This document shows, in pieces, positions 3,966 through 62,520 of a DNA stretch of 64,000 bases. Origin of the DNA: Eledone cirrhosa (taxonomy: Eukaryota); contig OZ024749.1 in NCBI GenBank assembly GCA_964016885.1, positions 41,602,001 through 41,666,000 on the forward strand, in the 5' to 3' direction. The position numbers and the translations under genes are program-made. Under the pieces are notes generated by a model. That model saw only the letters and a list, made by a program, of their open reading frames with translations, ran no database searches and was not told the origin of the DNA. Each line of letters begins with the position of its first letter. Positions within the stretch are counted from its first letter, which is position 1.

Positions 3966-4014
<49 letters not shown>

Positions 4015-4285
4015 TAAGAATAAAGGAACAAAGAATCAGTGTTGCATCATAACATATTACATATGTTTCATTGTCGATCAGCTCGAGGAATGATGCATTA
4101 TTGATCGAACCTGATCAGAGATGAGCTTACATACTGAAGCATATCTGAGGATCTTTCGATTCCAGAGTCAGATTCAATCAATAATAGATCATTCCTCGAG
4201 CTGATCGACAGTGAAACATATGTAATATGTTATAATGCAACACTGATTCTTTCTTCCTTTATTCTTATACTATATATATATATAT

Positions 4286-4343
<58 letters not shown>

Positions 4344-5109
4344 CAAGAGATAGACAGATAGATATAAATAAATATATATATAGAGGACTTACAGATGTAT
4401 ATCCTCTTCAACAAGAGGGGAAGCTGCTGCACACAATGCATCTGCATTTGCTAACAACACCTGACTGATAAAACTACCTCCTGCAAGACGGCCAGCTATT
4501 GAACTGCTGATACCTGTAATAACACAATATTGTTGTATTTAGAACAGAGACAGACGTGGTCTGAATGTTTGCAACAGAAGGACACCCCCAAGGACCACCA
4601 CATGACAAAGTGGTGTAGCTCAGGCTGGTCCTTCGGTGGTCTAGTTCTTTGGTTAGAAACAACCTGCTCATTGAATTAACTTTTCTGGGCAAGGCACATT
4701 GTGTCGCCGATAGTGTAATCTACCCTTAATATATAATGCAATGTCAAGGGAAGCAATTCATAAACATTTCTAGCGTACTAAAGGTTAACATGTAAGTGGC
4801 TGACTATTCCATAGACATGCTGTATGATAAGTGCTTTGAATCACAGATATAGTTCATCCAATGGATTTCCAAACAGTTTCTGTCTAACCAATTTTACTTT
4901 ATATGTCTTGGGTTGACTCAAGGCTATAGTCAAAGACAGTTGCCCACCCAAGGGGTTCAAACCCAGAACCTGATGATTGGGAAGTGAATCTCTTAACTAC
5001 ACAGCCATGCCATGACCATTAGATGCATATATATATATATATATAGTAAATCGGAAAGTACGCATCAAGTGCTCACTCTGGTCAACCTACGGTAACTGGA
5101 TGTTACAAT

Positions 5110-5160
<51 letters not shown>

Positions 5161-8100
5161 ATAGAGCCTGTGGTGCTGAGATGGGGAGACCACTAATCAT
5201 GGGAGTACTCAATGCATGGGGAGATGCAGAGTGGGTACAGAGATATGTAAAATCCCGACTGCAGCTCCAAGCAGTTTCAGCTTGTCTGACACAAACTGAA
5301 TATAAGGGGAAAAGAAATTCTTACTCAGACGGTAACAGTTTTTGAAGCACCTTCTATTGTGCATTCACAAGTTGTAAGTGCATCTAACAATTATTACGTA
5401 AGTATATGTATATATAGATATAAATATATATACACACGCACAGACGTTGTGTCACATTTCCTACATCTTATTCTGTTCCTGAGAGTCTTAACATTTCATG
5501 ACAGAAGTCAATATAAGAGGTGGGGCGTGGCAGGAGGAGGAAGGGTTGTTGCTTTGTTGACTGAAAAACTAGAACATTGAAAGACTACTATTGGTAGTAA
5601 AATCTATTGTAAATAGACTGACATGAAGAATGTGTGTCAATATAAAACTTTGCACATCAATCCAACCCATGTTATGAAGCAAGGGTAGACAAAAAAAAAA
5701 TGAAGTGTTAAAAAGAATTAAATTAAAAATGAAGAAAGTACAAACCCGACATGTTAATTTTAGATCATTTTTGTGAAAACAAAAATGAAATTAAAAACAG
5801 AAATGTTTGACCCTTTCGTTACCATATTTCCAATGAAAGACACTGTATATGATTTTCAATTAATTTTGAAAATAATGAAGAATTTGGAAGGATTTAGTAA
5901 AATATACTAACTTTCTCATTATTAAGCTGGTGTTTGGAACATAACAAATATTCTTACATAAAATTATGATGGAAGATTTTTAGATAAATAAAAACACTTT
6001 AAATCAAAAGGCTTTATATCAGAGAAACAGGCAAATTGGCATTAGCTTCTGGAACAGCTCCTCGTTTTAAAGTGTTTAAATTTATCTAAAAAAAACAACC
6101 CTTCCATCATAATTTTATATAAGAAAATTTTATTAAATTATGTTTCAAACACCAGCTTAAAAAATGATATCTGATTCAGGGTGAAGGTCATCAATTTGTG
6201 TGGAGGCATGTGGCCTAGTAGGAAAGGTGTTGGACTTTGATAAAAATGATGTGGGTTCAATTCCTGGACTGGGTTGTGTGTTGTGTTCTTGAGCGAAACA
6301 CTTCATTTCACATTCCTTCAGTATACCCAACTGAAAATTAGTACCAACAATAGCTGAGGGGTTTAACCCTGCAATGGACAGACATCCTGTCCAGGGAAAC
6401 AGATTTGTATTTTCAGTCACTTAATGGCATGTAAAATCTGATGAGTTTCTAGGCTCAAGACAGACTTTAGACCAACAATTCGTGGGTGGAGTGGAGGGGG
6501 GGGGGGGGGTGATTAGGTCGGCCTTGGTATTTGACTGATACTTTATTGTATCAACCTTGAAAAGATGAAAAGCAAAGTTGACTTTGGTGGGATTCGAACA
6601 CAGAATGTTAAGAGCTAGAAAAATACTGGTAAGCATTTGTCCGACGCTCTAATCCATCACCCTAAACACAAGATTAACAATGATAAAAGTTATATTATTA
6701 AATCCCTTTTATTTCTTGATTATTTTCAAAATTATTTGAAAATCATAGGCTGTGTCTTTTATGTTAATGAAAGAGTAAAAGCAAGATTGGTGTTTGTTAA
6801 AAAAGATTCTTGTTTGATGCACATTGCTGTTGAAATGTTGTAAATGTCCTTAGTAAAAGCAGATATTAAAGATGATAAGCTCAGTAGGGTTATCAGCAAA
6901 TACCCAGCAATAAGATGTTTTTTTAAAAATTTATTTAGTTAGTAGCTGATAGCTGGATGGGAGACAGCAGTGTACTTGTGGTGGGGGATAGGGGACAGTG
7001 AGGTGAGGTCCTAATGGTGAGGGACAGTAGTGTACTTGTGGTGGGTATTAGGGGACAGCAGTGTTCTAGTGGTGGGAGACAGCAGTGTCTGAGTGGTGGG
7101 GGACTGTGATGTCCTAGTGGTGTTGTCTGGTCACAGTTGTTCATTAACAGCCTCAAGTGTTATCAACAAAATACCAGATAAAAGCAAAGCTCTGGCTTCA
7201 CAGAAATATATGAATATACTCTACAACATGGACTGAGTACACTTCCTTTCATTTCTTAAACAAAAAAAAAATGTGTGTGTATCTGTGTATAATGTGTGTG
7301 TATACGTCGAAACGGCCGGAGCCCAGCCGTTGGGGTCCTGAATCTTTTCATATATATATATATAAAAATATATATAAAACTATGAGATCCCTTCCACTTA
7401 ATCTTCAGACATCTGAAGACTACAGTGGCATGAAACCCACGTAGGAAGAAAGAAAATTCAGTAAAAAAATAAATAAAACATATTCTACAATATGTAATAA
7501 ATGTTTCCTTCCTCACGTGTTTAGAAAAAATAACATGGATCAGTCAAGGTTATGCTAGTACCAGTGATGTCATTGGTTAATCCAGAGGTGTGCTACACCT
7601 TGTGTAAATATTTTATTTACAGAAGGTGTAGGCCAGCTCTGGATGAAACAATCAAACCAATAGTACTACAATAACCTTGACTGATCTCATGAAGTTATAT
7701 ATACATATATTTACCTCTATGTGTGTATATGTAAGTATGTATGCATCAGAAAAAAGAAATGGCAATATACTTTTTAAAAAGGTGAGAATCATAACCGTAA
7801 AATTATAAACTGAAAGCAATTCAAGAAGTGATACATGCTTTAATAGTAAATAAAAATTGATAATAAAAACGTCCATTTTGATCTCCCATCATCCATCATG
7901 CACAACGAGTGAGATATAAAATGGCTTTTTACTCATCGAAAAGCTGTAACATTTTGGTTAAGAAACATAAACTATTCCAAATTGGAACACATTTAATGAA
8001 ATATCAGCAATTTAGACAAACCTATCTTACATCTGAGAGAAAAATATGTAAGAAGAGCTTTAACTTGAACACAGAGTTACAGTTATGGTGATTTGTTGGG

Positions 8101-11100
8101 AAGGGAGGGAAGGACAGGAGGACCTGACAGACACAGCCTCATCAGAAAAAAAAGCAACCAAGTTGAAAGTATAAATATGTATTTATGAATAAAATATTTA
8201 GCAGATAAGTTAGTGATTGACTGAAATTTCCAGAAGCTTTTTGGGGAGAAAGGGAAAGACTTTATTAGTCAAGTTTAGATTATGTGAAAATTTAGAATCA
8301 GCGATATATTTTGTGAAGTGCAGCTGAAGATTAAAAAAAAGGCATGGTAGCCAACAAAATGAAAAAATAGGTAGAAAAAAAAAAAACAATCAAACAATAG
8401 GAACAGCATGGTTTAGAGATTAAGATAGAATTAAGAATTAATTAATAAATTATTATGCAGCAACAACAACACTGACAAATAAGCACAGTTTACATTCATA
8501 GATCAAACGATAGCTAAACCACAAGATGAGTTACAGAAGATAGAGAATCAAACAAGAGAAAAGAAGAATGCTTGGTTTCAATTTTCAATAGACACACAGA
8601 AACACAAATATATAAATATAGATAGATATATAAAAAAACACAATGATAGGGAGACAAGACCTTTCCTCCAAAAAATACAAAACTGAGGTGTATGCAAGAC
8701 TTAGTGGGAATAGGGATCACATAATAAGTAAGTCCCATAGTGTAGGTGTGTCCTAGTGGCTAGGGTGTTGGATTTACAATCATAAGATCAAGGGTTCAAT
8801 TCCCAGACCAGGTAGCGTGCTGTGTTCTTGAGCAAGATGCTTCATTTCACATTGCTTTTTATGATAGGACTGACGCCCCTATCATTAAAACATTCAAGAA
8901 ACCTCCAAAGAGATGTAACCTCGTAGGTGGCCAGCTAAACCTACACAAGTATGGGCTGTAACAACAACATGACAGGACTGGTGCCCTAGCATTAAAATAC
9001 CCAAGAAAGCTTCTGTTAGATATAACACCATAGGAAGCCAGCTAAACTTACACAGGTGTGAGCTATGACAACACGATAGGACTGAAATCCTATCACTGAA
9101 ACATCTGAGAAACCTCTAATGAAATACTAACTCATAGGAGGCCAACTAAACCTACATAAGTGTGAGCTGTAACAACAACGACACAATATGGCTGGAGCCC
9201 CAATAATTAAAACACCCAAGAAACCACCTATGAAATGTAAGGTATATTTTACAAGAAATATAAGAAGTAGACTCCCTTTATGTCTATAGCAGTAATATAA
9301 AGGATCCACAATCAACCTTAGATTGTTTAACCCTTTAGCATCTAAACCGGCTATAATTCTCTGACCTCTTTCTGTTCAAACTGGCCATAACTGTCTGTTC
9401 ATACTTATGTTAAGATATTGTTCTCAAAATAAATAATATCAAAATCTCATAGATTCAATATTATGTGAGATGAAGTATTTACCATGAATATACAATAGTA
9501 AATATAGAGTAATTTAAATGGTAAAGGGTTAACAAGTCAAATGTGTTCATCCTTCTTCAGTTGACTCACTAAAAACAAGAAGAAAGCATGTGGCCCAGTT
9601 GACATGGATCTATAATATTGAGGGAGTCAACTCCCCAACAAGTTTTATTCTGTTCTATTACTTGTTGGTACATTATGTACACCACATGAATACGTATATA
9701 TATATATATATATATATTATTTCTACTTTTGGCACAAGGCCAGCAATTATCCCAGTGTATTACTGGTACTTTATATTTTATCAACGGCGTAAGGATGAAA
9801 GGCAAAGTTAACCTCGGCGGGATTTGAACTCAGACCATAAAGGGCCGTAACTCTTTGCTGCAAAGCATGGCGTCTAACCCTCTTACCAGCTTGGGAGGTC
9901 TACATATTACATCTGGCCCAAACCCATTACTAGCTTTGTATGTCTACATTTTACATCTGGCCCAAGCCCATTACCAGCAAAGAAGCATGTTAGTTCATAT
10001 TAATGGCTTTAATTTTTGATATGTTTGTTCCCACCCGGGAATCCTTAAACATAACAGATGTAGTAGTAGTAGAAGAAGAAAAGGTGAACAACAAGAAGAA
10101 CAAGAGGAAGAAGAAGAAGTAGTAGAAGTGGGAGTGATAAAAAGATATATAATAATATAATAAAAACTAACAGCAGGAAAGGAAAAAAAATATAAAGAAG
10201 AAGAGAAAAAAGGAGGAGATGAAAAAAGATAGGGAGAGTGACACCATCAGTCAGAAGTACAGGTTTACCTGGCAGCATAAGACAGGGCTGTGCTGCAGTG
10301 GTGGGCGAATGTGGAATGTCTTTGATGGGGCTCTTATCCCGAATTTTACTAAGATTTGAGCCAACACTGTGCGACTTGTTGAACATGCTCATACTGCTGA
10401 TACGCCGAGTGGCTGGCCCTCGAGGTGACCTGGAATATTCTGAAAGACAGAACAGCACCCTTTGTGATATATATGTTGTTTATCGGCAATTTCTCTCAAT
10501 AGAATACATCTAACCATAAGGTAATTTTTTTTTTACTGTCTTTATTTTTTCACCCATTTTCAAGAATAAGTCAAGACGGAGTTATCGTTCTTGAGATTTC
10601 CCCTTTTTAAGGATAATTTTAAGGAACTGATCTTACTAATGAATCAACTTGTATAGACCGTGCGACCTGATGGAAAATATAATGACTGAACTTTACATTT
10701 TTATCTCCTTTAGACCATATGTCATCTTTTAATACAGATTTATACGTGCTCAGTAATAATATTTATATATTTATCATCATCAAACGACACCAATTGGAGT
10801 TATAGATTGTATATAAGATATGTTTTTCTTCTAAAAAGAACTTCTGTGTTTTTCTTTCATTCACACAGCAGCTTCCATGACTGTTTAAAACAAGGTCCTC
10901 CATTCTAGAGTAGTGACAACAGCAACAACAAAACAATAGTAATGGTTTCTAATTTAGGCACAAGGCTAGCAACTCGAAGTAGACGAAAGGGAAAGTCAAT
11001 CGTATCAACACCAGTACTTGACTGGTACTTTATTTTATCAACCCAAGGATGAAAGGCAAAGCTAACCTCAGCAGAATTTAAACACAGAACTCACACAAAA

Positions 11101-13277
11101 GAAAATTAATAATGACTACAACAACAACAGTCAGCTTGACACAGCCTCTGAATAAAAGACTTGTTAGCTTTCTTTTTGAAATTCAAACAAACATTTGACA
11201 CAACTTCCTTCTGAATATGTTTCCATTCAAAATTATTAGTTAAAAGAGGATCACCATTCTATTGAAGGGACGACGACAACAACAACAACAATATAGTAAT
11301 AATAATAATGATTTCTGATTTATGCACAAGGCCAACAATTTTGGGGAGGGGTAATTCGATTAAATCGACCCCAGTACTTACTGGTGCTTAATTTTATCGA
11401 CCCCCGTAAGGATGAAAGGCAAAGCTAACCTCGGTGGGATTTGAACTCAGGAAAAAATAATTATAATTGAAACTCTACTGGTGCGTGTTTTTATTGACAG
11501 TATCATCCCCTCAAAGTATAACAATAATTATAATAATATTCTTAAAAGATATTTAAAGTTTTAAATGAGGTACTGTTTACATTTTATTTTAACGCAAAGG
11601 GACATAACTGTATGCTTACAAAGCATATTGTCCGACGCTCTACTGATAAACATGAAAAGCAAAGAATTTTGTCCAACGCTCTGCCAATACTGCCAATCCG
11701 CTGCCTTAATTAATAATAGTAATAATAATAATAATAATATCAACAATAACAAGAACAGTCAACAAGGCACAGTTTTTGTATGAAAGATTCATTAGGTTTC
11801 CTTTCAAAATTTAAGACATCATTCAGCACAACCAACTTCAACAGAAATTTCCTTTCAAATATAAAACATCAGTTATTTTTCAGTGAACACCACAGACAAA
11901 AGTATGTTAAACAGTACTAATTTTTTTCTAAATACTTATTCCTTTCAGACAGAAAGATCTCTCAGATAAAGACTCCATACACACACAACAACAAAATAAT
12001 CTTACATGACCCTCACAGTAGCAGACCATTGTCGTTTAGTCCAAGAATAAATCAAACATCATTCTTCACTCTGATTTTTACGAACAAAACATAAAAAAAA
12101 AAGAAAAGGTCTCTCACAAAAAAATGTTCCGATATATAAAGTTATGTAGTATTATATATATATATATATAGTGAGACACGGTCACCCGACCCAACTCCCC
12201 TCAAGTGTGACAAGCCAGACTAATCCATGCTAACGTGGAAGATAGACGTTAGATGATGATATATTAATTTGATTAAAACAACAGGAGGCTGAGTTGGTAC
12301 TATTCCTTTATAAATATATCATCATCACAGTTTAATGTCTATTTTTCCATGCTTGCATGGGTTAGATGGGTCGCCCACATTATGAGACAAGTCTGGCCAG
12401 CTGGCCATGCCATAACTTGCTCAGATGGAACTGTATTTTGGCTAGGAGTTTTACAGTTGGATGCCCTTCCTAACACCAACCACGTTTACAGCGTGGGACT
12501 GGATGGCACCATAATGAAGAGGGTCTGGTCAGTTGGCTGCGCTGTACCCTGCTCACATTGGAACCACAAATTGGGACCTGGGTAGGCCCTTTATGAGAAA
12601 GGTAAAGCCAGTTGGCCACACCAATACTTACTCTTAACGGAGCTGCGTTACTGGTGGTCCTGTAATGAGCCAAGTCTGGCTATATGGCCACATCGTACCT
12701 TGTACATCTCAGGACTGTTACTGAATTTTGGGATCTGGGTGGTCCCGTTATGAGGGAGGTCTGGCCAGTTGGCCACACCATGCCTTGTTCATGGTGGGGC
12801 CATGATACTGGAAGGTCATGTCATGAGACAAGTCTGGCTAGATGGCCGCACAGTAGTTTAGAAATGAACGAGGCAGAATGGTTACTGTAGTGACCCTGCA
12901 CATGCGTTTTGCAAACACAGACAAGTTAGGGAAGAAAACTCCGATCGCTTGTTTCATTCTGGAGTGTTTCAGCTTCACATCTGAAAAGAGGGTAATAGCC
13001 CTGAAATATCAAGCTAACATACACTGAGATGTTTACTCACAGGGGTATGACAGAAAACTAAGCTATAGCTTATATACTTTCAGTGTATAAATTATCAGTT
13101 AGAGAAGTTCATTAGAGGTATATAGTGCATGCTTGACATGCCTGGGATAAATTAGTAGTGGGAGCTAGTTGTACTGCTAACTGTCAATATTATACGTAAT
13201 ATTGAGGTGACTTCTACAAGGAAATATATATATAGTGTGTATATATATGTATATATATATATATACAAAATTATTAT

Positions 13278-13318
<41 letters not shown>

Positions 13319-15424
13319 AAATTATTATTACTATATATATATATATATATATACAAAATTATTATTATTACTATATATATATATATATACATACATACAC
13401 AAACACTTAACTCTTCTGTGGGATGGAGAGAGAAAAGTTTATCAAGTAAATGAGAGATAGAGAGGGGAGGGTAAAATAGGTGCGCAGTAAAGAATATGGA
13501 GAGGAACTGTGTCTGAGAACAGAGAGAGAGATAATAGAAAGGAAGAAACCATTCCTAAACTACATGGCATAACAGCAGGTATTACATTATAAGGAACAGG
13601 TATTTCATCATAGGTAGTATATAACAGATACTAATATAATAACTACAATATGGCAGGTGACTACAGGGCAGGTGTTTATATGACAGGTGACTATATGACA
13701 GGTGACTATATGAAAGGTAAATATATGGCAGGTGACTAATGCAGCAGATCCTACTCATCAAAAATTGAACATCTAGTTGAATAGGAATGAAAAAAAAGAT
13801 TCATATATATATATATATACACACATAATAATGAAATAGTGCAGAAACATTGCACACGGATTGGCAAAACTAGTCAGGACTTTGAAGAAAAGATAGTTAT
13901 TTTTTTGTCTATTATTTTCTATTTTGTAATTTGATATATATATACTGTAGTATAGGTTTGGTAGAAATATCCAAGAGTTTAGAGCACTCAGTCCATAAGG
14001 ACGAGTTAAGTATAACTAGTTACAACAGTGACATATACAAGTACTTAAGTTTTGTTGGGTTATACACCCCAGCTCATTCAGCTGAATGAGTTGAGGTGTA
14101 TAACTCAATGAAACTTAAGTACCTGTATATATCACTGTTGTAACTAATTATATATATATATACATTTGTGTTGGAGCTCTGAAATAGGGATGTATATATG
14201 AATGTACGTATTGTATATTTGATAATATACTGTATGTTTATTTTAAAACATTTTGAAGGCATTTTGGTATGAATAGTCACATACCCAGCTTCAGCAAAAA
14301 CAATGGGGAATAACCAACGCGTTTCTCGTTGTTTAGAGGTTATCAAGGATATACCCCTCTCTCTATTTTCGAGAGAGGGGTATATATCCTTGATAACAGC
14401 TAAACAGCAGTTTTACACATAGAAAGCTCCCTCTGAGGCACATGCCCGGGCAAGGTATCATTGTGGAAGATAGAAGCCACCCATGCATACCCGTCTCCCC
14501 TTTCCAATGACAGATTTGTCAAAGGAAAAAGCAAAGACCAATATAGCTTGGCACTAGAGACGTTTTTTTTCCCAGCTGAGTGTGCTGGAGCAATGTGAAA
14601 TAAAGTGTCTTGCTCAAGAAGACAATAGATTGCCTGGTTCAGAAATTGAACTCACAACCTCATGATTGTGAGCCCAACACTAACCGACACACCTTCAAAT
14701 ATGTGTGTGTGTGTATATATATATATATATGTGAGTCCCGGGTTCAATTGGGGGTAACCACAGTAAGTAAGGTACTCAATACATTAGTAGAGTGTATACA
14801 ACAAATTTAATATAGAAATGGCTTCTACAGGACTAGAAATGTTTCATTCGAAGGAAATCATCAGGAAAAGGCCTGATGATGTCCTTCAAACGAAACAGTT
14901 CTATTCCTGTAGAAGCCATTTCTATATTAAATTTTGTTAAATATATAATATGTATAAATAGAGAGATATCATCATTGTTTTCTGTCCATCTGCATTGGAC
15001 TGAATTGCACAAACTGAGACTAGACCAGGGGAACACATCTGGAGGGGTAATTTATGCAATTTTATCAACTATTATATCTAGCGATTGACTGTTACTGCAC
15101 TTATTTTCTGTGTTTAGGACGTTCACATTTTCAAATTTCAAACACTCCCAAAGCTTTGATAGTTCATATATACATATATGATATATACATATATATATCA
15201 TATATGATATATATATATATATATCATATATGATATATATATATATCATATATGATATATATATATATATATATATCATATATGATATATATATATATAT
15301 ATATATATCATATATGATATATATATATATATATATATATCATATATGATATATATATATATATATATATCATATATGATATATATATCATATATGATAT
15401 ATATATATATATATATATCATATA

Positions 15425-15462
<38 letters not shown>

Positions 15463-15980
15463 TATATGATATATATATATATATATCATATATGATATAT
15501 ATATATATATATATATATCATATATGATATATATATATATATATATATATCATATATGATATATATATATATATATATATCATATATGATATATATATAT
15601 ATATATATATATCATATATGATATATATATATATATATATATATCATATATGATATATATATATATATATCATATATGATATATATATATATATATATAT
15701 GATATATATATATATATATATATCATATATGATATATATATATATATATATATCATATATGATATATATATCATATATGATATATATATATATATATATA
15801 TCATATATGATATATATATATATATATATATCATATATATATATATATATATATCATATATGATATATATATATATATATCATATATGATATATATATAT
15901 ATATATATATATCATATATGATATATATATATATATATATATATCATATATGATATATATATATATATATATATCATATA

Positions 15981-16020
<40 letters not shown>

Positions 16021-16033
16021 TATATATATATAT

Positions 16034-16068
<35 letters not shown>

Positions 16069-16192
16069 TATATACATATACATATATATACCATATATAC
16101 ATATACATATCATATATGATATATATATATATATATATATATCATATATACATATACATATATATACCATATATACATATACATATCATATA

Positions 16193-16226
<34 letters not shown>

Positions 16227-16485
16227 TATATACATATACATATATATACCATATATACATATACATATCATATATGATATATATATATATATATATATAT
16301 ATCATATATACATATACATATATATACCATATATACATATACATATCATATATGATATATATATATATATATATATATATATCATATATACATATACATA
16401 TATATATACATATACATATATATATATATATATATCATATATACATATACATATATATATACATATACATATATATATATATATG

Positions 16486-16524
<39 letters not shown>

Positions 16525-16549
16525 CATATATATCATATATATCATATAT

Positions 16550-16587
<38 letters not shown>

Positions 16588-16605
16588 ATATATATATATA
16601 TATAT

Positions 16606-16640
<35 letters not shown>

Positions 16641-16645
16641 TATAT

Positions 16646-16676
<31 letters not shown>

Positions 16677-16728
16677 CATATATATATATATATATATATA
16701 TATCATATATATATATATATATATATAT

Positions 16729-16763
<35 letters not shown>

Positions 16764-17622
16764 TTGCGAGGTTTTTTATATGAAATCGTGTGTCGAAACA
16801 GATATTGTTATATTTGGGGAGGGTCATATTTGCGTAATATTGCCAGAATTAATAACAGAACACACTCACTGTTTGGTTGGTTTTCGCTTCTCGCTGTCTT
16901 TTATATATATATATCTGCGATCTAACTTACTCGGTCCTCAATGTTGCCATTGACTGACCGGCGGTCAAAAATAATACAGATACAATATAGACAAACACAT
17001 ATATATATAGTTTACATAAATCTTTCGTTGCACATCTGCAACATCGTCAGTGGTGTTATATTCATTGTTCCTCCTGTTGTGTTGTATGTCTACGCCATTT
17101 TTTTGTTGTTCAGTCTGTCTATAGACAGACTGAACAAAAAAATGGCGTAGACATACAACACAACAGGAGGAACAATGAATATAACACCACTGACGATGTT
17201 GCAGATGTGCAACGAAAGATTTATGTAAACTATATATATATGTGTTTGTCTATATTGTATCTGTATTATTTTTGACCGCCGGTCAGTCAATGGCAACATT
17301 GAGGACCGAGTAAGTTAGATCGCAGATATATATATATAAAAGACAGCGAGAAGCGAAAACCAACCAAACAGTGAGTGTGTTCTGTTATTAATTCTGGCAT
17401 TATTACGCAAATATGACCCTCCCCAAATATAACAATATATATATATATATATATATATCATATATATATATATATATATATATATCATATATATCATATA
17501 TATCATATATATATATATCATATATATATATATATATATCATATATATATATATATATCATATATATATATATATATCATATATATATATATATATCATA
17601 TATATATATATATATCATATAT

Positions 17623-17653
<31 letters not shown>

Positions 17654-17728
17654 CATATATATATATATATAATATATATATATATATATCATATATATAT
17701 ATATCATATATATATATATATAATATAT

Positions 17729-17788
<60 letters not shown>

Positions 17789-18113
17789 CATATATATATA
17801 TATATATATCATATATATATATATATCATATATATATATCATATATATATATATATATATATATCATATATATATATATATCATATATATATATATATCA
17901 TATATATATACATATCATATATATATACATATCATATATATATATACATATCATATATATATATATATCATATATATATACATATCATATATATATACAT
18001 ATCATATATATATATACATATCATATATATATACATATCATATATATATACATATATACATATATATATACATATATATATATACATATCATATATATAT
18101 ACATATATATATG

Positions 18114-18145
<32 letters not shown>

Positions 18146-18219
18146 GATATATATATATATACATATATATATACATATATACATATATATATATATATCA
18201 TATATATATATATATATCA

Positions 18220-18260
<41 letters not shown>

Positions 18261-18290
18261 CATATATATATATCATATATATATATATAT

Positions 18291-18384
<94 letters not shown>

Positions 18385-18385
18385 C

Positions 18386-18417
<32 letters not shown>

Positions 18418-18450
18418 CATATATATATGTATATATATATATATCATATA

Positions 18451-18503
<53 letters not shown>

Positions 18504-18550
18504 TATATATATGTATATATCATATATATATGTATGCATGTATGTATGTA

Positions 18551-18590
<40 letters not shown>

Positions 18591-19220
18591 TACACGCATA
18601 CACACATGCATGCATACATATATATATATATATATATATATGTACATACATATATCTATATATATATACATACATATATATATATATGGAATATGTGTGT
18701 TTACATAAGGAGTCAATGAAAGAAAGGGTCCTGAACATTTTGATACTAACCTTCTCCCGAGGGTTCGACACACAGACAGCTGGAGCTGGCTTCAGAGGAA
18801 ACATCAAAACAGGAGACTGTAAAAAGAATAATATATATAGAAACTCACTCAGATGGTGGATGGGTGCTACACGAGAATGCCGAGGATGGCACTGAACATT
18901 AATCAGTATACACTGAGGATGAAAAACTCAGAGCTGTATGGGAGCATCCCAAAAGTCAGCTCAAAAGTGACACAGAGGAGACTGAGGTTGGCTGGACATG
19001 CTCACCGACATCCAGAGTTGACATATATATATATATGTCTGTGTATATATATATATATATATAGGTGTAAGGAAGGGCATCCAGCCAGAGACACCCCTAT
19101 ATGAGCGAGACATGGTCATCTGACACAATTTGCCTGAAAATAGGACCCGTCTTACCCATGCTAGCATGGAAGATGGATGTTAATCGAAGATGATGATGAT
19201 ATACACACACACACGCACAC

Positions 19221-19257
<37 letters not shown>

Positions 19258-22200
19258 TATAGTGGTGATAGTTATAACATTGACTAGTGAGGTTGATGAT
19301 GATGATGATGATGATGATGAAAATTAAAGCAGAAATCCTAACACAACAATATATTATATAAGAGATTTACCTGCAAGTTTCAACTGCGTTGGATGTGCAT
19401 TAGCTGCTGGTTTGGACTCCGACGTATATACTGCAAATGTTGGTACAGATTGCGACACCTCTAGACACTGCACAGAGTTGGACGATGGGAACTGTTCAGA
19501 TTGTTCACAGAGAATATTGGAATCAAGTGCCAACGACTCTACGTCAGCTGCAGCAGCTTCGGATTGCATAAGGCCACACTGCGATTCAGTTTGTGCATTC
19601 TGTTCGTCAACAGCTGTAATACATAATGTAACACAATATAGATGTAACATGACATAAATGTCTATGGTTTTCAAATCCCTTTAAAAATTATCAAAATTTA
19701 TTAAGCTGATGTTAGATATAATTTAACCCATTAGCTTTTAACCAGTCATATCTGGCCAGAATTCTCTCACCTCTTTCTATTCAAACTTGCCATAATCGGC
19801 AGCTCATACTTATGTTAAGGTATTGTTTTCAAAATAAATATCAAAACCGATTCGATATTACGTGAAATAAAGCATTTAGCACAAAAATACAATAGTAAAT
19901 ATAGAGTAATATAAATGCTAAAGGGTTAATAAAGGTTCTTACATAAAATTATGGTGGAAGGTTTTTAGATAAATATAAATACTTTACAATGGGCAGTTTT
20001 ATAACAGAGAACTAGGGGAAATTTCAAGTGATTTGGTATCACTCAAAGGGGTTAAGAAGAAGCAGAAAAAACATGTACAAACCTTTCTCCGTGTGCTCAA
20101 TAATCTGGCGAATAGCTTTTTTCAAACTGTTTGCACGACACATAAGAGCTTCTCTTGGCTTGAATATCATCTTCAATATAGAAATGTAAATATAAATACA
20201 TGTAATAATAGTTTCTAGCATAGGAATAAGGCCAGGCCTTTTTTTAGGGGAGGAGGGGAGGGGAGTTGATCGTATCAACTCCAGTACTTGACTGGTACTT
20301 TATTTTATAAACCTCTGAAAAGATGAAAAGCTAAGACAACCACGCTGAGATTTGAATCAACCCTAGTATATTAATAGTCCTTTAATTTGTTGACCCATAA
20401 GGATGAAAGACAAAGTTAACCTCGGCAGGATTTTGAACTCAGATCGTAAAGAGGTGTAACCCTCTGCTGCAAAGCATGGCGTCTGACCCTCTACTGCCAA
20501 TAGGGACCCCAGATCTAGCATGTTTTTACAACTCACACCTATGTAGGTTTAGTTGGTCTCCTACGAGGTTGTATCTCAAAGGAGGTTTCTAGAGTGTTTT
20601 CATGATAGGGACCCCAGCCATGTCACATTGCAATAATTCACACTTATGTGGTCACATGCCTTCCACATTTAGTATTTAAATATATTTAAGCATCCTTACG
20701 CCTTTTGTGTTCTTAATACCAGTAATCTCTCCGGGGACTGTGTCCCTGTCAGGAGAACTCGCTTCATCTTTCTCATCACTTGAACATTTGAAGCAGCTTT
20801 CTTGAGCAGACACCTATAAGTCACAAGGGAGATAACTATTAGATACATATGCATTGAGTGGGGAAGAGGGAAAGAGAGAGAGGAGGCATAGTGAAGGAGT
20901 AGAGAAGAGAACTTTTATTAGAGCAATAATGAGAGAAGGGGAAACATACACACATAAATACACACACATATATATAATAGTGTATATAGTCAGAGAATGT
21001 ATGTTAAAATATATAGAATAGTATATATATAGTCAGAGAATGTATATTAAAATATATATTATAGTGTATATAATCATCAGATAATGTATGTTAAAATATA
21101 TATTACAGTGTATATATAGTTATGAAACTATGTATGCTAAAAGATGACATGTGGAACGGAGTTAAACAGAAATCTACAATATTTAAGACAGAAGACTGCA
21201 ATGAAACTACTCTCACCATATGAGCTTCATCATTCAATGTCTTCAGTAAACTTTCCAGCTTTTCATTTAAAACATTACACTGTAAATAGAAAACATAAAT
21301 AAATATAAAAGACAGTTTTATCTGTTAACACTATTTAGACGAAATTTGAAAATTACTTCACTACGGTCTTGCCAGAGTTACCGCTCTTACATTTTACATC
21401 TCTCTTAGACCGTTAAACCAACTAGTGGAGAGGGCTTTACATCTGGTCCGCGTCTTTTACCAGCTTTGGAGTTATACATTTTACAGCTGCCCACGCCTAT
21501 TACCAGCTTTAGGGAGATATATTATACATGTGGCCTGAGTCAATTACCAGATTTGCATGGTCCTATATTTTACATCTGGCCTGGGTCTATTACTAGATAC
21601 ATTTAAAACTTGTCCTAGGCCTGTTAACAGTTTTAGAGGTATACATTTGACACCTGGTCTAAGGCTATTATCAGTTTTTCACCATGTGATGTGTTAACTC
21701 AGTATCACTTCAACCCAAGCTAGAGGATTAACTAAAAAAAAAGTGTTAGAGTTCAATACTTTGTCATGTTTTAGAAATAAATGCTCCAGGTTACACCAGA
21801 GAGGCGGGGAGAGAATAGCATACATCATGGTGTCCCCCAAAGATGTATACACAACTTTGATTACCTGTACAGACAAGGCAATATTTATTAGAATGCTATT
21901 GAAGTGAGTTTTTGGGACACCCTGTATTTACTTATTCATCCTCATGTTTATTTTCCACACTAGCATGGATTGGACAGGTTGTTACAGTCCAAGACATGAC
22001 AAGCAAGAGAGACCTCAGCTTGCTCAAATGTTCCATATTTTTGGCATGATCTCTACAGATTATAAAGTAGTAGAAATAACTACGCACAATGATGTTTAGG
22101 GATCACTGGCTTAGGATGACCCCAAGCTTGTTAAGTAAGAGCAAGGAGAGAGAAATAACTTACTTTAGACGATATAGATGTCTCTCCTGTCTTTTCTCCG

Positions 22201-22617
22201 TCACCATCCTGCGACTGCCCGACTTTGCATACAAATTCTTTCACAGTTTCACATAAAACTCTGAAAGCAGAAACATTGAAGATGTTATTAGTTTGGTCAA
22301 AACATAGGCTTCATTGTACTCTAACAAAACATACTTTTCTCTTTCATTAACATATTTCTAGCCTAGAATATTCAAATCATTTTGAAAATAAGCAAGAATC
22401 TTTTTGGTGTTTGGAATTTAACAAAAGTTCTTACAAAAAAAAATTATGGTGGAAAATATTTAGATTAATATATAAATGCTTTAATCTTTTCGTTGCCATA
22501 TTTCTAATGAAAGACATTGCCTTTGGTTTTAAAATAATTTCGAATGGATTTAATAAAAATCCATTAACTTTCTCATTATTAAGCCGATGTTTGTAATACA
22601 CGTATATAGATACATAG

Positions 22618-22648
<31 letters not shown>

Positions 22649-23708: not shown

Positions 23709-23777
<69 letters not shown>

Positions 23778-23792
23778 TATATATATATAAAT

Positions 23793-23845
<53 letters not shown>

Positions 23846-24286
23846 AATATATGTAGGAGGTGAGTTTTATTGTAGTACAATAAAGCAATGCAGATATCGG
23901 ATAAGAAGCACTCTACAGTTTGTGGGACTGGAGTATGCATAATATAAGATCAAAAGATGGTTAAAGGAGTTCCATATATTTTATTATGCGCATTTCAAAA
24001 ACAAACATCATCAAACAATAATATTTGTGTTTTCATCAGATAAAACAGGAGAACATGATATGAAGGCTAAAAAACACTTGTTGATAGTGCAGTTTTAAAC
24101 CAACATATGTTGATTTAAAACTGCACTATCAACAAGTGTTTTTTAGCCTTCATATCATGTTCTCCTGTTTTATCTGATGAAAACACAAATATTATTGTTT
24201 GATGATGTTTGTTTTTGAAATGCGCATAATAAAATATATGGAACTCCTTTAACCATCTTTTGATCTTATATTATATATAAATATAT

Positions 24287-24332
<46 letters not shown>

Positions 24333-24822: not shown

Positions 24823-24853
<31 letters not shown>

Positions 24854-31334: not shown

Positions 31335-31365
<31 letters not shown>

Positions 31366-31391
31366 AAAAGAAATACACATACACACATATG

Positions 31392-31453
<62 letters not shown>

Positions 31454-47430: not shown

Positions 47431-48032
47431 TCAAAGCATCTCACAGGCCCAGGCCCAAATGTCCCTTCCAAGCTATACAGGCAAACTTATGCATGTATAC
47501 ATATACATACATGATGATGATTTATATGTGATTTTGTGTATGAGTGTGTATATATATATAACCTTTTTGAAATATTTACTTCTGCGTTCACAGATTGATT
47601 TTTTTAGTTTCAGAAGATCTCCTTAAGGGTGAAAGCAGCGATTCTTTGCTTAAATTTTAATATGTTATTTTAATATATATAATTATATATTCGTGTACAG
47701 ATATTTTTGCATACACAATAACAAAATATAAACAAACGTATTTATTTCACGAGGCTCGATAAGAATAAATATATATCAAATATATAAGAACCCTAGAGCA
47801 AATCCCGAACAACGCCGGGCCATTCTGCTAGTATATATATAAAATAGGTACATGTTCCACCAACTAAATAGGTTGGTGTCAGAAAGGGCATCCAGGTGTA
47901 GAATTCTACCTCAGAGAGACCCATCCAACCCATACCAGCATGGAAAAGCGGATGTAAAAACCATGATGATATGTTTATATATGTATAATGTATGCACAAA
48001 TAAATGTTCACATGTGCACACGTCTGCAGACC

Positions 48033-54086: not shown

Positions 54087-57000
54087 TATCTTTATTAGTA
54101 GACAGGTCATTGTGAAAATTTGCAGTATTAGAGTAAAGTAAAGAGTTTTATTTTTAATGTAACACAGTCATAGTGTTGCTTGGGGATCCAGTGGGACTGT
54201 TTGGAGATGGCTGCCTCTAATAGGACCCTCTTCTAGAAGGTGTGTTTGAAGACTGTAACCCCACAACCCTCTCAAGAATAAGAACGGGTAGAGAAGAAGA
54301 CGACGACAAAAATGACCCTGAAAGTGTGAAAGGCAAAGTCGAGCTGAACAGGATTTGAAGTGAGAGCAGAGTGAGTCAATATATATATTGCCAGAAATGT
54401 TATGAATAATTAACTGAGCGTCAACTGGACTTCCACAGAAATTCAATAATGGAGTTGGATTCTCTGGAGAACCATGCACTATTTAGCAGCAGATTTTGGT
54501 TTCTAACAACAAATGAGCATCTACATGGTCACTTAATGACTTCTTAGACATAACAACCAAACACTAACCCTCAAATCACCTTATATCATAATAATAATAA
54601 TAATGAAAATTATTGTGTACAGGGCTCAGGTGCACTACAACTCATCAAAGTGCATGTATACATAGAGTAATGGTTTCTGATTTAAGCCAACAAATTTGAA
54701 GGGGAGGGAAAAGTCGATTAAATCCCCCCCCCCCCCCCAATGCATTACTGGTGCTTTATTTTATCTGACCAAGATACTTTCATGGAATGAACAAATGAGG
54801 TTTATTTTTCCCCCAATGCATTACTGGTGCTTTATTTTATCTGACCAAGATACTTTCATGGAATGAACAAATGAGGTTTATGTTTCAACATAGTCCCTGG
54901 AGAGAAACAATGCAGTTATTAATAAGAGTCGAAATTAATGCATGCAAGATTTCACAGCTCTAGCATCAATCCTTCATAGCCAGTCTATGAACTTTTCAGC
55001 CGACCCATATAGGTCTTTAGTGGCTGTCAGCAGACAGTTTCATATTCGAATGTGAGTGAAACATCCCCAGGGGGCAGTGGGTTCTTCACTCCTGATTTAA
55101 ACAGAAGTTTGGTAGATGCAAACTACATGGAAGCCCATCAAGTGAACTCTAGCAGTAATTTTAACAGCCTGCCTCGTCACACACAGTGTCAGGCAGATTC
55201 TGCCAAAAGATTAGACTAAAAGTACATGTCTGTAGAATACTCAGCTGCCTACACACCAATATACTGAGTAGGCAATCCGCTTGACTGAATAACTGGAATA
55301 GTCATCATCTAATCCGACAGAGGATACATTTCTATATAGATATATATCTATGTTTATGTATGTGTGTATGTACATATGTGTGTATATATATGTTTATGTA
55401 TATCCATATGTATGTATGTCGGCATAAGTGTGTGTATGTATGTATGTATATATGCACATGTGTATGTATGTATGTGTTTATGTATATGCATATGTATGTA
55501 CGTATATATGCACATGTGTATGTATGTATGTGTTTATGTATATGCATATGTATGTATGTAGATGTGTGTATGTATGCATGTTTGGGTATATGTGAGTGTG
55601 TAAATATATATAGTCCTACATTTCTATGTATATATATATGTGATTATTTATTATACATATCATATATATATATATATATATATACACGTTTGTGTGTGAG
55701 TGTGTGTGTGCATATATGCATCTATATATATATGCATGTGAGTGTGTGTATGTGTATATATATATATATATATATATCATCAATTTACATCTGGGTTAGA
55801 TGGGTTGTTACTATTCAAGACAAGACAAGTTAGATAACAACATCTTGCTCATGTATTCCATATTTTCACAAATAGAACAAGATCAGAAAAAAGAGGAGAC
55901 ACAGAGGAGCAAGAATAGTCATTAAGAAGGTCACAGGATGTGTGACAAAAGAACTTTGACAATTAACAATTAAACAACAGCCGGATTACTAAACTAACCC
56001 ATGAATGGATTAATAACTCAACTAATAATAAACTGAAGTGAAACTCAGCTGGTGTGTGGGTTATTATTATAAAGTATAATAATATATATATAACCAAAGA
56101 ATTAAGGCATTTATACAATGACAATTGTTTCTACCCATATTGAGTCACATATAGTGAACTATTTTGCTATGGGTGTCTTCAGAGTTTATTAAAAATGCTT
56201 ATATAATCCACTATATGTCCCTCATTGCATTGAGTTAAAAACACCCTGTAAATGAGTATACTTACTCCCATTAATATTACAATTATAACTATATTATATT
56301 AGTATTATTATTATTATTATGGGGGTGGTGGATTGGTAGTATCGGTAGAGGGTCTGATGCCATGCTTTGCAGCAAAACGTTACGGCCCTTTATGGCCTGA
56401 GTTCAAATCCCGTCATGGTTAACTTTGCCTTTCATCCTTATGGGGTCGATAAAATAAAGTACCAGTAATACACTGGGATAATTGCTGGCCTTGTGCCAAA
56501 AGTAGAAACAATTATTATTATTAGAGAGAGAGAGAGAGAGAGAGTCTGTGGTGCTGAAACCAAAGAAACCATAAATCCTGGGAGTACTCAATGCATGGGG
56601 AGATGCAGAGTTGGTACAGAGATAGGTATAATCCCAACCGCAGTGCCAAGTGTATATATATTTTTTCAATGCTCTACTGATTCTGTCAGTCCACCAAGTA
56701 GGCAGGTAGGTAGATAAATAGGTAGAAAGGTAGATATGTAGGCAGGCAAGTAGGTAGGTAGGTAGATCATTGGTAGAGGTATGTAGGAATGTATGAAGGT
56801 AGATAGATAGGCAGGTAACTGGTAGGTAGTTCATTGATTGATTTGTGGGTAGTAGGTAAGTTAAGCTACATAGGGGGTTGATAGTAAGTAGACGAATAGT
56901 TTCATAGATTGCATCATTTCTGGAATGGGCTGGAGATGTCTATTAGAATCTTGTAAAGAGTTTCTAAAATGTTGAAAGGAAACTTTAAAATGGTGAGAAG

Positions 57001-60449: not shown

Positions 60450-61090
60450 GAGCTTGTATACTAGTGTGGGTGAGAGCTGTATACTAGTGTGGGTGAGAGC
60501 TTGTATACTAGTGTGGGTGAGAGCTAGTACATTAGTGTGGGTGAGAGCTTGTATACTAGTGTGGGTGAGAGCTGTATACTAGTGTGGGTGAGAGCTGTAT
60601 ACTAGTGTGGGTGAGAGCTTGTATACTAGTGTGGGTGAGAGCTAGTACATTAGTGTGGGTGAGAGCTGTATACTAGTGTGGGTGAGAGCTGTATACTAGT
60701 GTGGGTGAGAGCTGTATACTAGTGTGGGTGAGAGCTGTATACTAGTGTGGGTGAGAGCTGTATATTAGTGTGGGTGAGAGCTGTATATTAGTGTGGGTGA
60801 GAGCTGTATATTAGTGTGGGTGAGAGCTGTATATTAGTGTGGGTGAGAGCTGTATACTAGTGTGGGTGAGAGCTGTATATTAGTGTGGGCGAGAGCTGTA
60901 TATTAGTGTGGGTGAGAGCTGTGTACTAGTGTGGGTGAGAGCTTGTATACTAGTGTGGGTGAGAGCTGTATACTAGTGTGGGTGAGAGCTTGTATACTAG
61001 TGTGGGTAAGAGCTGTATACTAGTGTGGGTGAGAGCTGTATACTAGTGTGGGTGAGAGCTAGTACATTAGTGTGGGTGAGAGCTTGTATG
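60450..61090. repeat. 23/24-bp minisatellite TAGTGTGGGTGAGAGCTGTATAC, about 27 copies
   Basis: Seen directly in the sequence. Confidence 0.93.
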
Positions 61091-61620
61091 AGAACTTGTA
61101 TATGAGTGTGTGTGAGGGTGTATATATGAGTGCGCATAAGAGTATGTAAGTTAGTGTGTGTGTGAAAGCTTATATGTGGGTGTGTGTGGGAGTGTGTATG
61201 TGGGTGTGAGAGAAGGCATCGATGTAAGAAGGAGTGTGAGTATGTGTGTATAACATGGTACACTGACATGCATGAGTGGCTGCGAGGGAAGAGCATGCAT
61301 GTACATTTACATGTATGTATACAAGTGCGTATGTGTGTATGCATGTGTGTGTGTATGTGCGCAGACATATATGTATGTATGAGAGATTACACACATACAT
61401 ATATGTGTATGGTGAGAGATAAAGAGCATATGAATTTATGTGTGTATATGAACGAATATGCATGTGTGTATATTTAAAAATATGTGTGCGTGTGTGCGTG
61501 TGTATGTGTGTGAACATGTGAAAAGTGCATATGTGGGTATGTGTAATTGTTCATGTAATTATTAAAGGATTAGAGTAAAAGAGGGTGAGAGAGGTATAGG
61601 AGATGTAAGGGAGGTAAGTG

Positions 61621-61952
61621 AGGAACGGGGGGAGGGAGAGTATAGACGGGAGGTGAGGGAGTTAAGTGAGGGGAGGAGTAATAGATGTGTGCTCGATAGG
61701 TGGGAGGAGGGTTGTTTAAGAGAGGGATAGGGGAAATTACAGGACTTGTGGGTGGGTGGTGGGGTTTTATAGGACATGTGTGGGTAGAGCCCCCCCCCCC
61801 CCTCCTCCGGTTATTTAATTACACCCACACAAGGTGATTAGTCAGTTATGTTGATAATGAAGGGATATAGGTGGGGGAGGGAAGGGTATATTGGAGCCAG
61901 ACACACAGCTGCTAAAGTGGAGTTCTGTCTGTCCGTCTGTCCACCTCCCCCC

Positions 61953-61986
<34 letters not shown>

Positions 61987-62520
61987 ATCATCATCATCAT
62001 GTTTATTTACCATGTCTACATAGGTTACACGGGTTGTCTATCAATAAAATATATTTTAGTAGGCAAGTTTGTATAAGGGAGGTAACTAAAGGGACATAAC
62101 TCAGGTCAACATAGCCATGCAATAGATGAAGATCGATACAACCAGTAGGAAACTGAGGGTGAGTTCGACTAAAACTCTTGAAAGTTGGGTTCCCTTCACG
62201 GCCACAGACTCATAACTGAAACCTCCCGTCTATACTCTCCCTCCCCCCGTTCCTTACTTCGGGGTTATAAGAGGCTTAGCTCTGTTTCTCGACCGTTATA
62301 TCGCGTGACTATCTCCCCCTCCGCCTTTTGGGATTCTTTCTCACGTCGTGTAGACGCGTTCTTGAGACTAGTAAAATGAGGTATCCTCTTGATAAGTCGG
62401 CAGACCTCGCAAGGACTCTATATCTTTATGATGTATTGTTTTTGTTTATGCCACGAAACTACGTAGTCGAGGAATCTAGGAGCAGTTTAAGTATGATACA
62501 TTTTATTACTAATTATATCT
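61621..62520 (+). mobile_element. Penelope-like element remnant: decayed ORF end, pseudo-LTR with hammerhead, inverted partial LTR
   Basis: Frameshifted RKLRVS / LKLLKVGFP / HG at about 62147-62205 resembles the PLE GIY-YIG C-terminus (RxxRExxWIxxLxTxxPxGLN). A perfect 34-bp inverted repeat links 61621-61654 and 62221-62254. Hammerhead at 62379. Confidence 0.55.
62379..62477 (+). ncRNA. Type I hammerhead ribozyme, U3-A8 core variant
   Basis: Stem I TCCTC/GAGGA (extendable); core TTGATAA at 62389-62395; stem II GTCGGCAGAC...GTTTATGCCAC; GAAA at 62455-62458; palindromic stem III ACTACGTAGT; GUC triplet ending 62468. Confidence 0.7.

What the first reader, a model, noticed from the sequence alone, without database searches (positions are those of the whole stretch)
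4011..62477. A diverse family system of ribozyme-bearing palindromic elements in (TA)n tracts
Seen: hammerhead-pattern motifs at about 4201, 7309 (3' half), 7413, 14082, 14340, 14873, 17190, 23627 (3' half), 24174, 27515, 41751, 47611, 55920 and 62389. Their stem sequences mostly differ, but several share the grammar core-stem II-GAAA-palindrome-NUH (ACATATGT, ACTTAAGT, ACGCGT, ATGCGCAT, ACGATCGT, ACTACGTAGT). Many lie in inverted repeats next to (TA)n. Inference: several Penelope-like or retrozyme subfamilies have seeded about one motif per 5 kb in a single gene. This would imply a very large ribozyme and dsRNA complement genome-wide in a lineage known for heavy RNA editing.
Basis: partly seen in the sequence, partly recalled or inferred. 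Interest (0 to 1): 0.8.

Follow-up and report, generated by a model that had tools for sequence, protein, structure and literature searches.

The report
Penelope relics with long-armed hammerheads
Introns of an octopod diacylglycerol kinase gene are scattered with short, often mirror-image repeats beside TA microsatellites that carry hammerhead self-cutting-RNA motifs; they are most likely dead ends of Penelope-type jumping genes (a known kind), and what may be new is their density and the unusually long arm in several of the ribozymes.

Summary
Real, largely known biology. A three-stem type I hammerhead descriptor finds 8 motifs at 6 loci; 900 dinucleotide shuffles give 0.03-0.05 (maximum 2). 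Seven motif-bearing fold-backs are head-to-head, motifs lie next to (TA)n, and one family has a one-sided ~40-nt tail that continues a reading frame (6 synonymous, 3 non-synonymous changes). This is the published anatomy of truncated Penelope-like element (PLE) ends. No RT or GIY-YIG was found, so membership is inferred; no tandem retrozyme arrangement is present. Intact-looking motifs occur about once per 11 kb, not 5 kb, and fold-back copies are predicted to be locked in double-stranded RNA. Possibly new: five motifs have a 31-61-nt stem II, beyond the published list I saw, and two tested families are very abundant in octopod DNA runs. Genome-wide numbers, cleavage and editing are untested. 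The scan earlier noted PLE hammerheads on other DNA.

The parts
4012..4270 (.). Head-to-head fold-back between (TA)n tracts; left arm lacks the 5' core
   Evidence: (83% arms)
4138..4231 (+). Type I hammerhead: core CTGAGGA 4145, 61-nt stem II region, palindrome ACATATGT, predicted cut after 4224, 7-pair stem I
   Evidence: stem II alone folds no better than shuffles (z +0.8)
7300..7335 (+). 3' half only (GAAA, 5-bp GC stem, GUU); no 5' core found; unverified
   Evidence: read from the sequence
7402..7450 (+). Decayed motif with a fold-back junction 4 nt before the core (TCTTCAG-ACAT-CTGAAGA); stems broken; unverified
   Evidence: read from the sequence
11453..11526 (+). 3' fragment of family A without ribozyme or tail
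13873..14016 (-). One-sided extension of the 14017 fold-back, shared with other genomic copies
   Evidence: depth; contigs laid over 13934-14083
14017..14146 (.). Fold-back joined exactly at C3 of both cores; right arm 14082+ (core CTGAATGA, stem II, ACTTAAGT, GUA), stem I 5' strand lost; left copy has lost G12
14157..14352 (-). Family copy with hammerhead at 14346 (U3-A8 core TTGATAA, 5 of 6 stem I pairs, ACGCGT, stem II decayed); short fold-back 14330-14406
14733..14934 (.). High-copy family: one-sided extension 14733-14802 and fold-back 14803-14934 with cores at 14864- and 14873+; 4-bp monomeric stem III, GUA
16761..17438 (.). Family A fold-back inside a 3.5-kb AT array; hammerheads 17050- and 17190+; tail 16761-16801 on the left arm only
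23517..23645 (+). Probable decayed long-arm motif: core lacking one base, ~105-nt stem II region (z -2.2), ACGATCGT; no stem I; unverified
23853..24279 (.). Near-perfect fold-back 23934-24279 with hammerheads 24039- and 24174+ (8-bp stem I, 36-nt stem II, ATGCGCAT, AUA); left-only flank 23853-23933 opens with ATG on the - strand
27464..27529 (-). Decayed hammerhead, core CTGGTGA at 27521, 31-nt stem II, ACATGTGT, 7-pair stem I
   Evidence: (loose descriptor)
33108..33257 (.).
41705..42003 (+). Family A copy: hammerhead 41747-41789 (core 41751), then pLTR end and tail with open frame 41884/41920-42003, then (TA)n
47606..47803 (+). Decayed hammerhead (core CAGAAGA 47611, 5-bp stem I, monomeric stem III) with inverted tail piece 47753-47803
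55884..56080 (+). Decayed family A copy, both core halves mutated, stems kept, no tail
56112..56190 (-).
62380..62478 (+). Best long-arm hammerhead: U3-A8 core TTGATAA 62389, 59-nt stem II (z -3.9), ACTACGTAGT, GUC, stem I 5 bp plus extension
1055..36918 (-). Host gene context: exons of diacylglycerol kinase delta; the elements lie in its introns

Best explanation
These are short repeats of several unrelated families, each carrying a type I hammerhead motif next to a TA microsatellite, and they are most likely the 5'-truncated ends (pseudo-LTRs) of endonuclease-bearing Penelope-like retrotransposons. Inferred course: the element's GIY-YIG endonuclease cut at (TA)n, reverse transcription started at one of two sites near the next unit's ORF start (giving copies with or without the tail), stopped early in or just upstream of the ribozyme, and often folded back to give a head-to-head pair. 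In the parent element the motif would cut multimeric RNA as a dimer through its palindromic stem III (as monomer in the 14873 and 47611 families). In the intron most copies are predicted to be silent: mutated, without a partner, or, in fold-backs, paired with the antisense arm, which is transcribed first on either strand. Their main present-day product would be 80-630-nt double-stranded RNA in the DGK pre-mRNA, a likely ADAR substrate. Shown: motifs, repeats, orientation, tail, coding signal, abundance. Inferred: PLE parentage, insertion steps, cleavage, editing.
For: Motif excess over shuffles and decoys. Family A: three loci keep the core positions and stems; 94% of 36 cells paired, 2 double-sided changes in stem II, slid controls 17-44%. 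14082 family: this arm has A-U where most laid copies have G and C (14094, 14105). Most copies have GUC where 14346- has GUU (14316). 7 of 10 fold-backs carry whole or half motifs, all reading outward from the centre (read from sequence). Tail on one arm only; 2 of 5 family A ends have it; frame open for 22 codons with 6 synonymous and 3 non-synonymous changes, other frames with stops. Arkhipova 2013 (PMC3846280, passages) describes the same: inverted pLTR head-to-head, 31-bp tail on one, first 12 aa in the pLTR and 22 aa with the tail. Cervera and de la Pena 2014 (PMC4209133, parts 1-2 of 4 and supplement parts 1-2 of 3): minimal PLE hammerheads, palindromic helix III, unpaired base after A9, U3-A8 core, opposite-strand pairs 100-700 bp apart. 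Craig 2021 (PMC8557442, passages): (TA)n targets, inverted truncated copy, 30-40-bp tail. Frangieh 2024 (PMC11167929, passages): tail equals two RT start sites. O. vulgaris has 31 recently active PLE families (PMC13282606, part 1 of 3). The fold-back joint at 14868 recurs in 3, 4 and 11 contigs and 106 reads.
Against: No RT or GIY-YIG found: 16 frames scanned in Pfam gave only DGK domains; the 40-aa tail frame had no homolog in three searches. Covariation rests on 3 sequences and is not significant by itself (38 of 500 shuffles); the two majority letters are not phased, and DNA hairpin repair can mimic compensation. The synonymous excess has P=0.003 at the codon-based expectation but 0.05 at a transition-rich one. 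The long stem II motifs are single loci with no covariation test; 4145's arm folds no better than shuffles and its lowest-energy fold is not the hammerhead. Rfam finds nothing. The near-perfect fold-backs at 16.8 and 23.9 kb were not checked against reads.
Confidence: 0.82

Rival explanations
1. Some families are non-autonomous hammerhead elements (non-LTR retrozymes or SINE-like pLTR derivatives) spread by PLE enzymes through small circular RNAs; the copies here would be stray monomers.
For: No ORF body in the window; very high abundance of the 14873 family and a 72-nt 'goes back' joint in its 3' part; retrozymes are argued to derive from pLTRs and have monomers (bioRxiv 10.64898/2026.07.22.740005, parts 1-2 of 5).
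Against: No head-to-tail hammerhead array among the 150 tandem rows shown of 162 or in the descriptor hits; arrangement is head-to-head with one-sided tails; family A tail behaves like a coding frame.
Confidence: 0.2
2. The long-arm motifs are the 'HHR_half_core' of TA-targeting Naiad elements, complete hammerheads that short descriptors missed.
For: Craig 2021 lists Naiad_Ovul and Naiad_Esco with (TA)n preference and half cores 35-50 nt apart.
Against: The octopus Naiad consensus 3' motif has GAAA before CTGATGA and a different sequence (read by eye); a 13-nt piece of it has only chance-level matches in the window; 7 of 8 window ribozyme motifs searched were absent from that supplement or hit unrelated text, and the one 3' motif with two hits lay in other contexts.
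Confidence: 0.07
3. The elements are fold-back DNA transposons (MITEs) or assembly artefacts, and the motifs are by-products of AT-rich inverted repeats.
For: Three fold-backs without a recognisable motif exist (5919, 7534, 27332); two fold-backs are almost perfect and lie beside long TA arrays.
Against: Decoy cores on the real sequence give at most 1 hit against 7; four strong motifs are not in fold-backs (41751, 56182, 62389, 27521); arms differ and are asymmetric; the 14-15 kb families are present in three samples.
Confidence: 0.04
4. The intronic hammerheads are still active and kept by the host to cut the DGK pre-mRNA or supply editing substrates.
For: Intact-looking cores lie on the host-sense strand at 24039, 17050, 56182, 14864 and 14346.
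Against: Cores are paired in the predicted fold-back structure (4 of 4 tested); many copies show random decay; PLE minimal hammerheads cut poorly even as dimers; no reads ended at the cut site of an anole PLE.
Confidence: 0.06

Closest known systems
Minimal type I hammerheads in pseudo-LTRs of endonuclease-bearing Penelope-like elements (Cervera and de la Pena 2014, PMC4209133; Lunse, Weinberg and Breaker 2017, not held, known to me only from a citation and recall)
   Same: Core, unpaired base after A9, G10.1-C11.1 in family A, palindromic stem III, U3-A8 variant, many divergent families per genome, single dispersed motifs and opposite-strand pairs.
   Different: Five motifs have a 31-61-nt stem II region (a sixth possibly ~105), against about 10-24 nt in the 56 listed examples (counted by eye); no cephalopod is in that list; local density is far above what 4,000-9,000 motifs per vertebrate genome imply; no ORF link shown here.
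Inverted pLTR insertions with a one-sided tail (Arkhipova 2013, PMC3846280; Craig 2021, PMC8557442; Frangieh 2024, PMC11167929)
   Same: Head-to-head fold-backs, tail on one arm, ORF start at the pLTR end continuing into the tail, (TA)n targets.
   Different: Here nothing but the ends is left; junctions fall within about 70 nt upstream of, or inside, the ribozyme in all seven motif-bearing fold-backs; clade unknown.
Non-LTR retrozymes of animals (Cervera and de la Pena 2020, PMC7229834, passages; bioRxiv 10.64898/2026.07.22.740005)
   Same: Short non-coding units with type I hammerheads, very high copy number.
   Different: Retrozymes are head-to-tail tandem arrays that make circles; none is seen here.
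Naiad elements of cephalopods (Craig 2021)
   Same: (TA)n preference; widely spaced half cores.
   Different: Different order and sequence of the 3' motif; not found in the window.

Membership tests
Type I hammerhead ribozyme | Core CUGANGA...GAAA...UH with stems I, II, III in type I order | tested here: met
   8 hits at 6 loci against 0.03-0.05 in shuffles; stem I is weak at 17190/17050 and 56182
Type I hammerhead ribozyme | Covariation among copies | tested here: inconclusive
   2 double-sided changes in 3 copies, 38 of 500 shuffles; one unphased compensatory pair
Type I hammerhead ribozyme | Match to an Rfam hammerhead model | tested here: not met
   I take this as a limit of the models for minimal and long-arm forms (inference)
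Type I hammerhead ribozyme | Self-cleavage | not testable with these tools
   needs in vitro assay
EN+ Penelope-like element | ORF with PLE reverse transcriptase and GIY-YIG endonuclease | tested here: inconclusive
   none in the 16 frames scanned, tail frame without homologs; no genome held; truncated ends are not expected to hold it
EN+ Penelope-like element | Hammerhead in the pseudo-LTR near the 3' end | tested here: met
   motifs lie 40-320 nt from the outer end in all families
EN+ Penelope-like element | Inverted head-to-head truncated copy | tested here: met
   7 of 10 fold-backs
EN+ Penelope-like element | Optional tail continuing the ORF start | tested here: met
   family A; one-sided extensions at 13873, 14733 and 23853
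EN+ Penelope-like element | Direct tandem pLTRs about 3 kb apart; intron in pLTR | not tested
   no full element in the window
Non-LTR retrozyme | Head-to-tail tandem units each with a hammerhead | tested here: not met
   (window only)
Non-LTR retrozyme | Small circular RNAs | not testable with these tools
   no RNA run listed
Naiad (octopus families) | 3' end like Naiad_Ovul/Obim consensus | tested here: not met

The most novel reading that the evidence does not exclude
Octopod genomes hold on the order of 100,000 Penelope-derived hammerhead motifs, a large share of them a long-armed form (stem II of 30-100 nt, arisen in several families) that standard descriptors and Rfam miss; reverse transcription preferentially stops and folds back at the ribozyme; and the resulting head-to-head fold-backs are a main source of the long double-stranded RNA behind the exceptional non-coding hyper-editing of octopus.
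Probability: 0.3. Interest if true: 0.65.

Novelty: new variant of a known kind. Interest (0 to 1): 0.4.

Why it matters
The system is known. If the density holds genome-wide, octopods would be among the most hammerhead-rich animals (published: about 4,000 and 9,000 minimal motifs in coelacanth and Xenopus; up to 120,000 retrozyme motifs in axolotl), and hammerhead censuses with short stem II limits would be undercounts. Porath 2017 (PMC5625713, passages) found an exceptional amount of long dsRNA and hyper-editing in octopus, explained the similar frog signal by a palindromic repeat, and noted heavy editing of lizard Penelope; in the passages I saw no octopus repeat is named. Motif-bearing fold-backs make up 2.6% of this window, which makes them a directly testable candidate.

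Tried and rejected
Own genome not held. First two descriptors limited stem II to 40-45 nt and missed 4145 and 62389. Monomeric-stem-III descriptor: not clearly above chance. Tail peptide searches: 0 hits; Atlas best 0.75, no family. Sequencing runs: no RNA holder listed, no evidence either way. Degenerate pattern in viral contigs: 68 loci, 0 of 68 pass the descriptor. 21-mer of the 14873 family in metagenomes: 3 loci, no similarity beyond the word, they look like bacterial ferredoxin genes. Rfam at E<=5: 150 of 258 rows shown, none a hammerhead. Naiad link rejected. Summed contig depth was not used as a copy number, only as a sign of abundance. Lunse 2017 not held, so long stem II may be described there; bioRxiv supplements are closed. 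Not-in-print statements rest on searches: no paper on cephalopod PLE hammerheads was listed.

Full report
Setting. The window is intronic DNA of an octopod. An exon at 19369-19614 (- strand) is 86% identical to Argonauta hians and 84% to Octopus vulgaris diacylglycerol kinase delta. Exons for residues 117-1028 map from 36918 down to 1055; residues 1-116 do not map, so the right 27 kb are probably one intron. No genome is held.

Observation. My first descriptors (stem II up to 40-45 nt) found only some motifs. Reading the sequence showed that '4201' has its true core 56 nt upstream, where a 7-pair stem I closes, so I allowed stem II up to 110 nt. At score 11 or more the strict form gives 8 hits at 6 loci: 4145+, 17050-/17190+, 24039-/24174+, 41751+, 56182-, 62389+. 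Three kinds of dinucleotide shuffle, 300 each, give means of 0.03-0.05 and at most 2; reversed and complemented sequence give 0; of 179 permuted decoy cores on the real sequence the best gives 1, the true core 7. The scoring was fixed after I had seen the motifs, but the gap is large. A descriptor for motifs with a monomeric stem III was not clearly above chance, so 14873 rests on family evidence and 47611 on a second copy at 33108-33202. Rfam finds none of them.

Anatomy. Ten fold-backs were found after masking simple repeats. Seven hold whole or half motifs, and in all seven the motif reads outward, with the junction inside the ribozyme or within about 70 nt upstream of it (read from the sequence): exactly at C3 at 14081/14082, a few bases upstream at 14864/14873, inside stem II at 33154. 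These seven sum to 1,658 nt (2.6% of the window); nine fold-backs measured sum to 2,061 nt.

Family A has three ribozyme loci and one fragment. Stem II reads GTTGCA/TGCAAC in one and GTCACA/TGTGAC in two: 2 double-sided changes, 94% of 36 cells paired, slid controls 17-44%, but 38 of 500 shuffles reach the covariation score, so three sequences do not prove it. Two of five 3' ends carry a tail of about 40-55 nt; the fold-back has it on one arm only. The pLTR end plus tail is an open frame of 22 codons in both tailed copies, with 6 synonymous and 3 non-synonymous changes (P=0.003 at the codon-based expectation of 0.20, 0.05 at 0.35). The peptide has no homolog in three searches.

Other genomic copies. 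I laid four DNA runs (three samples; X1 and X2 may be the source of the assembly) on 13830-15100 at 80% likeness. Contigs identical to the window have depth about 5 in X1. Summed depth is 5,700-20,600 over the 14082 element, 76,800 over the 14873 core, up to 846,500 over its left arm, and 1,039,000 over a neighbouring SINE-like repeat (label recalled); the 14346 family has 220 at the ribozyme and about 80,000 further 3'. The tool warns that this is no copy number; I take it only as showing abundant families with many more 3' ends than ribozymes. Most copies have G at 14094 and C at 14105 where this arm has an A-U pair (unphased), and GUC where 14346- has GUU. Depth continues into left-only flanks (13873-14016, 14733-14802). 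A fold-back joint at 14868 recurs in 3, 4 and 11 contigs and in 106 reads from 3 starts. Only 40 of 205 variant rows and 15 of 343 joints were shown.

What it is. This anatomy is the published one for truncated ends of Penelope-like elements. Arkhipova 2013 (PMC3846280, passages) describes an inverted pLTR, head-to-head, a 31-bp tail on one of them, and 12 residues of the ORF in the pLTR, 22 with the tail. Craig 2021 (PMC8557442, passages and supplement) adds (TA)n targets. Frangieh 2024 (PMC11167929, passages) ties the tail to two RT start sites and found hammerhead cleavage dispensable in vitro. Octopus vulgaris has 31 recently active PLE families; that paper does not mention ribozymes (PMC13282606). 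The defining RT+GIY-YIG ORF was not found and could not be sought outside the window, so membership is inferred (0.82).

How it works. Inferred: insertion at (TA)n by target-primed reverse transcription, early stop, frequent fold-back. In the parent the ribozyme would process multimeric RNA as a dimer. In the intron, whichever strand is read, the antisense arm of a head-to-head pair is made first, and the core is paired in the predicted fold in 4 of 4 cases tested. So these copies are more likely dsRNA than working ribozymes.

What may be new. Five motifs of unrelated sequence have a stem II region of 61, 36, 59, 44 and 31 nt (4145, 24174, 62389, 56182, 27521), and 23517 perhaps about 105. Five of these six fold better than shuffles (z -2.1 to -3.9); 4145 does not. 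The 56 examples in the 2014 list have about 10-24 nt (by eye). I could not read Lunse 2017. I tested whether these are the 'half cores' of octopus Naiads; they are not, by order and sequence. Searches for cephalopod hammerheads listed no such paper. Octopus has an exceptional share of long dsRNA and hyper-editing (PMC5625713, passages); these fold-backs are a candidate source, untested here because no RNA run was listed.

Verdict. Observation partly confirmed, interpretation partly supported. A variant of a known system; interest 0.4.

Noticed in passing
window 15166-18687: 3.5-kb AT array with interspersed TCATA-type units and internal perfect palindromes (15527-16006); the family A fold-back sits inside it. 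Could be partly an assembly product.
   Followed up: no
window 5919-6163 and 7534-7691: Fold-backs without a recognisable hammerhead; the first belongs to an AT-rich repeat with at least 8 related stretches in the window, possibly a MITE.
   Followed up: partly
window 47753-47850: After the 47611 motif and an inverted tail piece comes a small GC hairpin followed by CTAGT, resembling a Helitron 3' end (recalled, not tested).
   Followed up: no
window 61616-61654 and 62221-62259: 39-nt inverted pair (97%) about 570 nt apart, just upstream of the 62389 hammerhead; a TATA-like word follows at about 62265 and a 48-codon frame starts at ATG 62377 across the ribozyme.
   Followed up: no
window 14795-14840: Laid contigs show a 'goes back 46' joint with 26 extra letters (depth about 3,300-3,800), suggesting a 72-nt tandem derivative of the 14873 family elsewhere in the genome, without the core.
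   Followed up: no
window 42100-42165: Short insert between TA tracts with CTGATGA but no GAAA half.
   Followed up: partly
window 27895-28226: 138-nt tandem repeat (2.4 copies) with CTGANGA in its units; not a hit of the descriptor.
   Followed up: partly
window 45819-47426, 57618-58273, 60450-61080: Young minisatellites (46-nt x35; 73-nt x9 from a SINE-like repeat end; about 20-nt units).
   Followed up: no
window 51659-52201: Repeat-free, GC-richer block ending in a donor-like GTAAG on the - strand; possible alternative first exon of the DGK gene.
   Followed up: no
window 10267-10443: DGK exon that matches the Argonauta protein but not the O. vulgaris isoform X2: probably an alternative exon.
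   Followed up: partly
PMC8557442 File S, Naiad_Ovul and Naiad_Obim 3' ends: The 'half core' there is flanked by clear helices (GACACC/GGTGTC before GAAA, CTGCCC/GGGCAG before CTGATGA) and may be a permuted ribozyme; seen by eye only.
   Followed up: no
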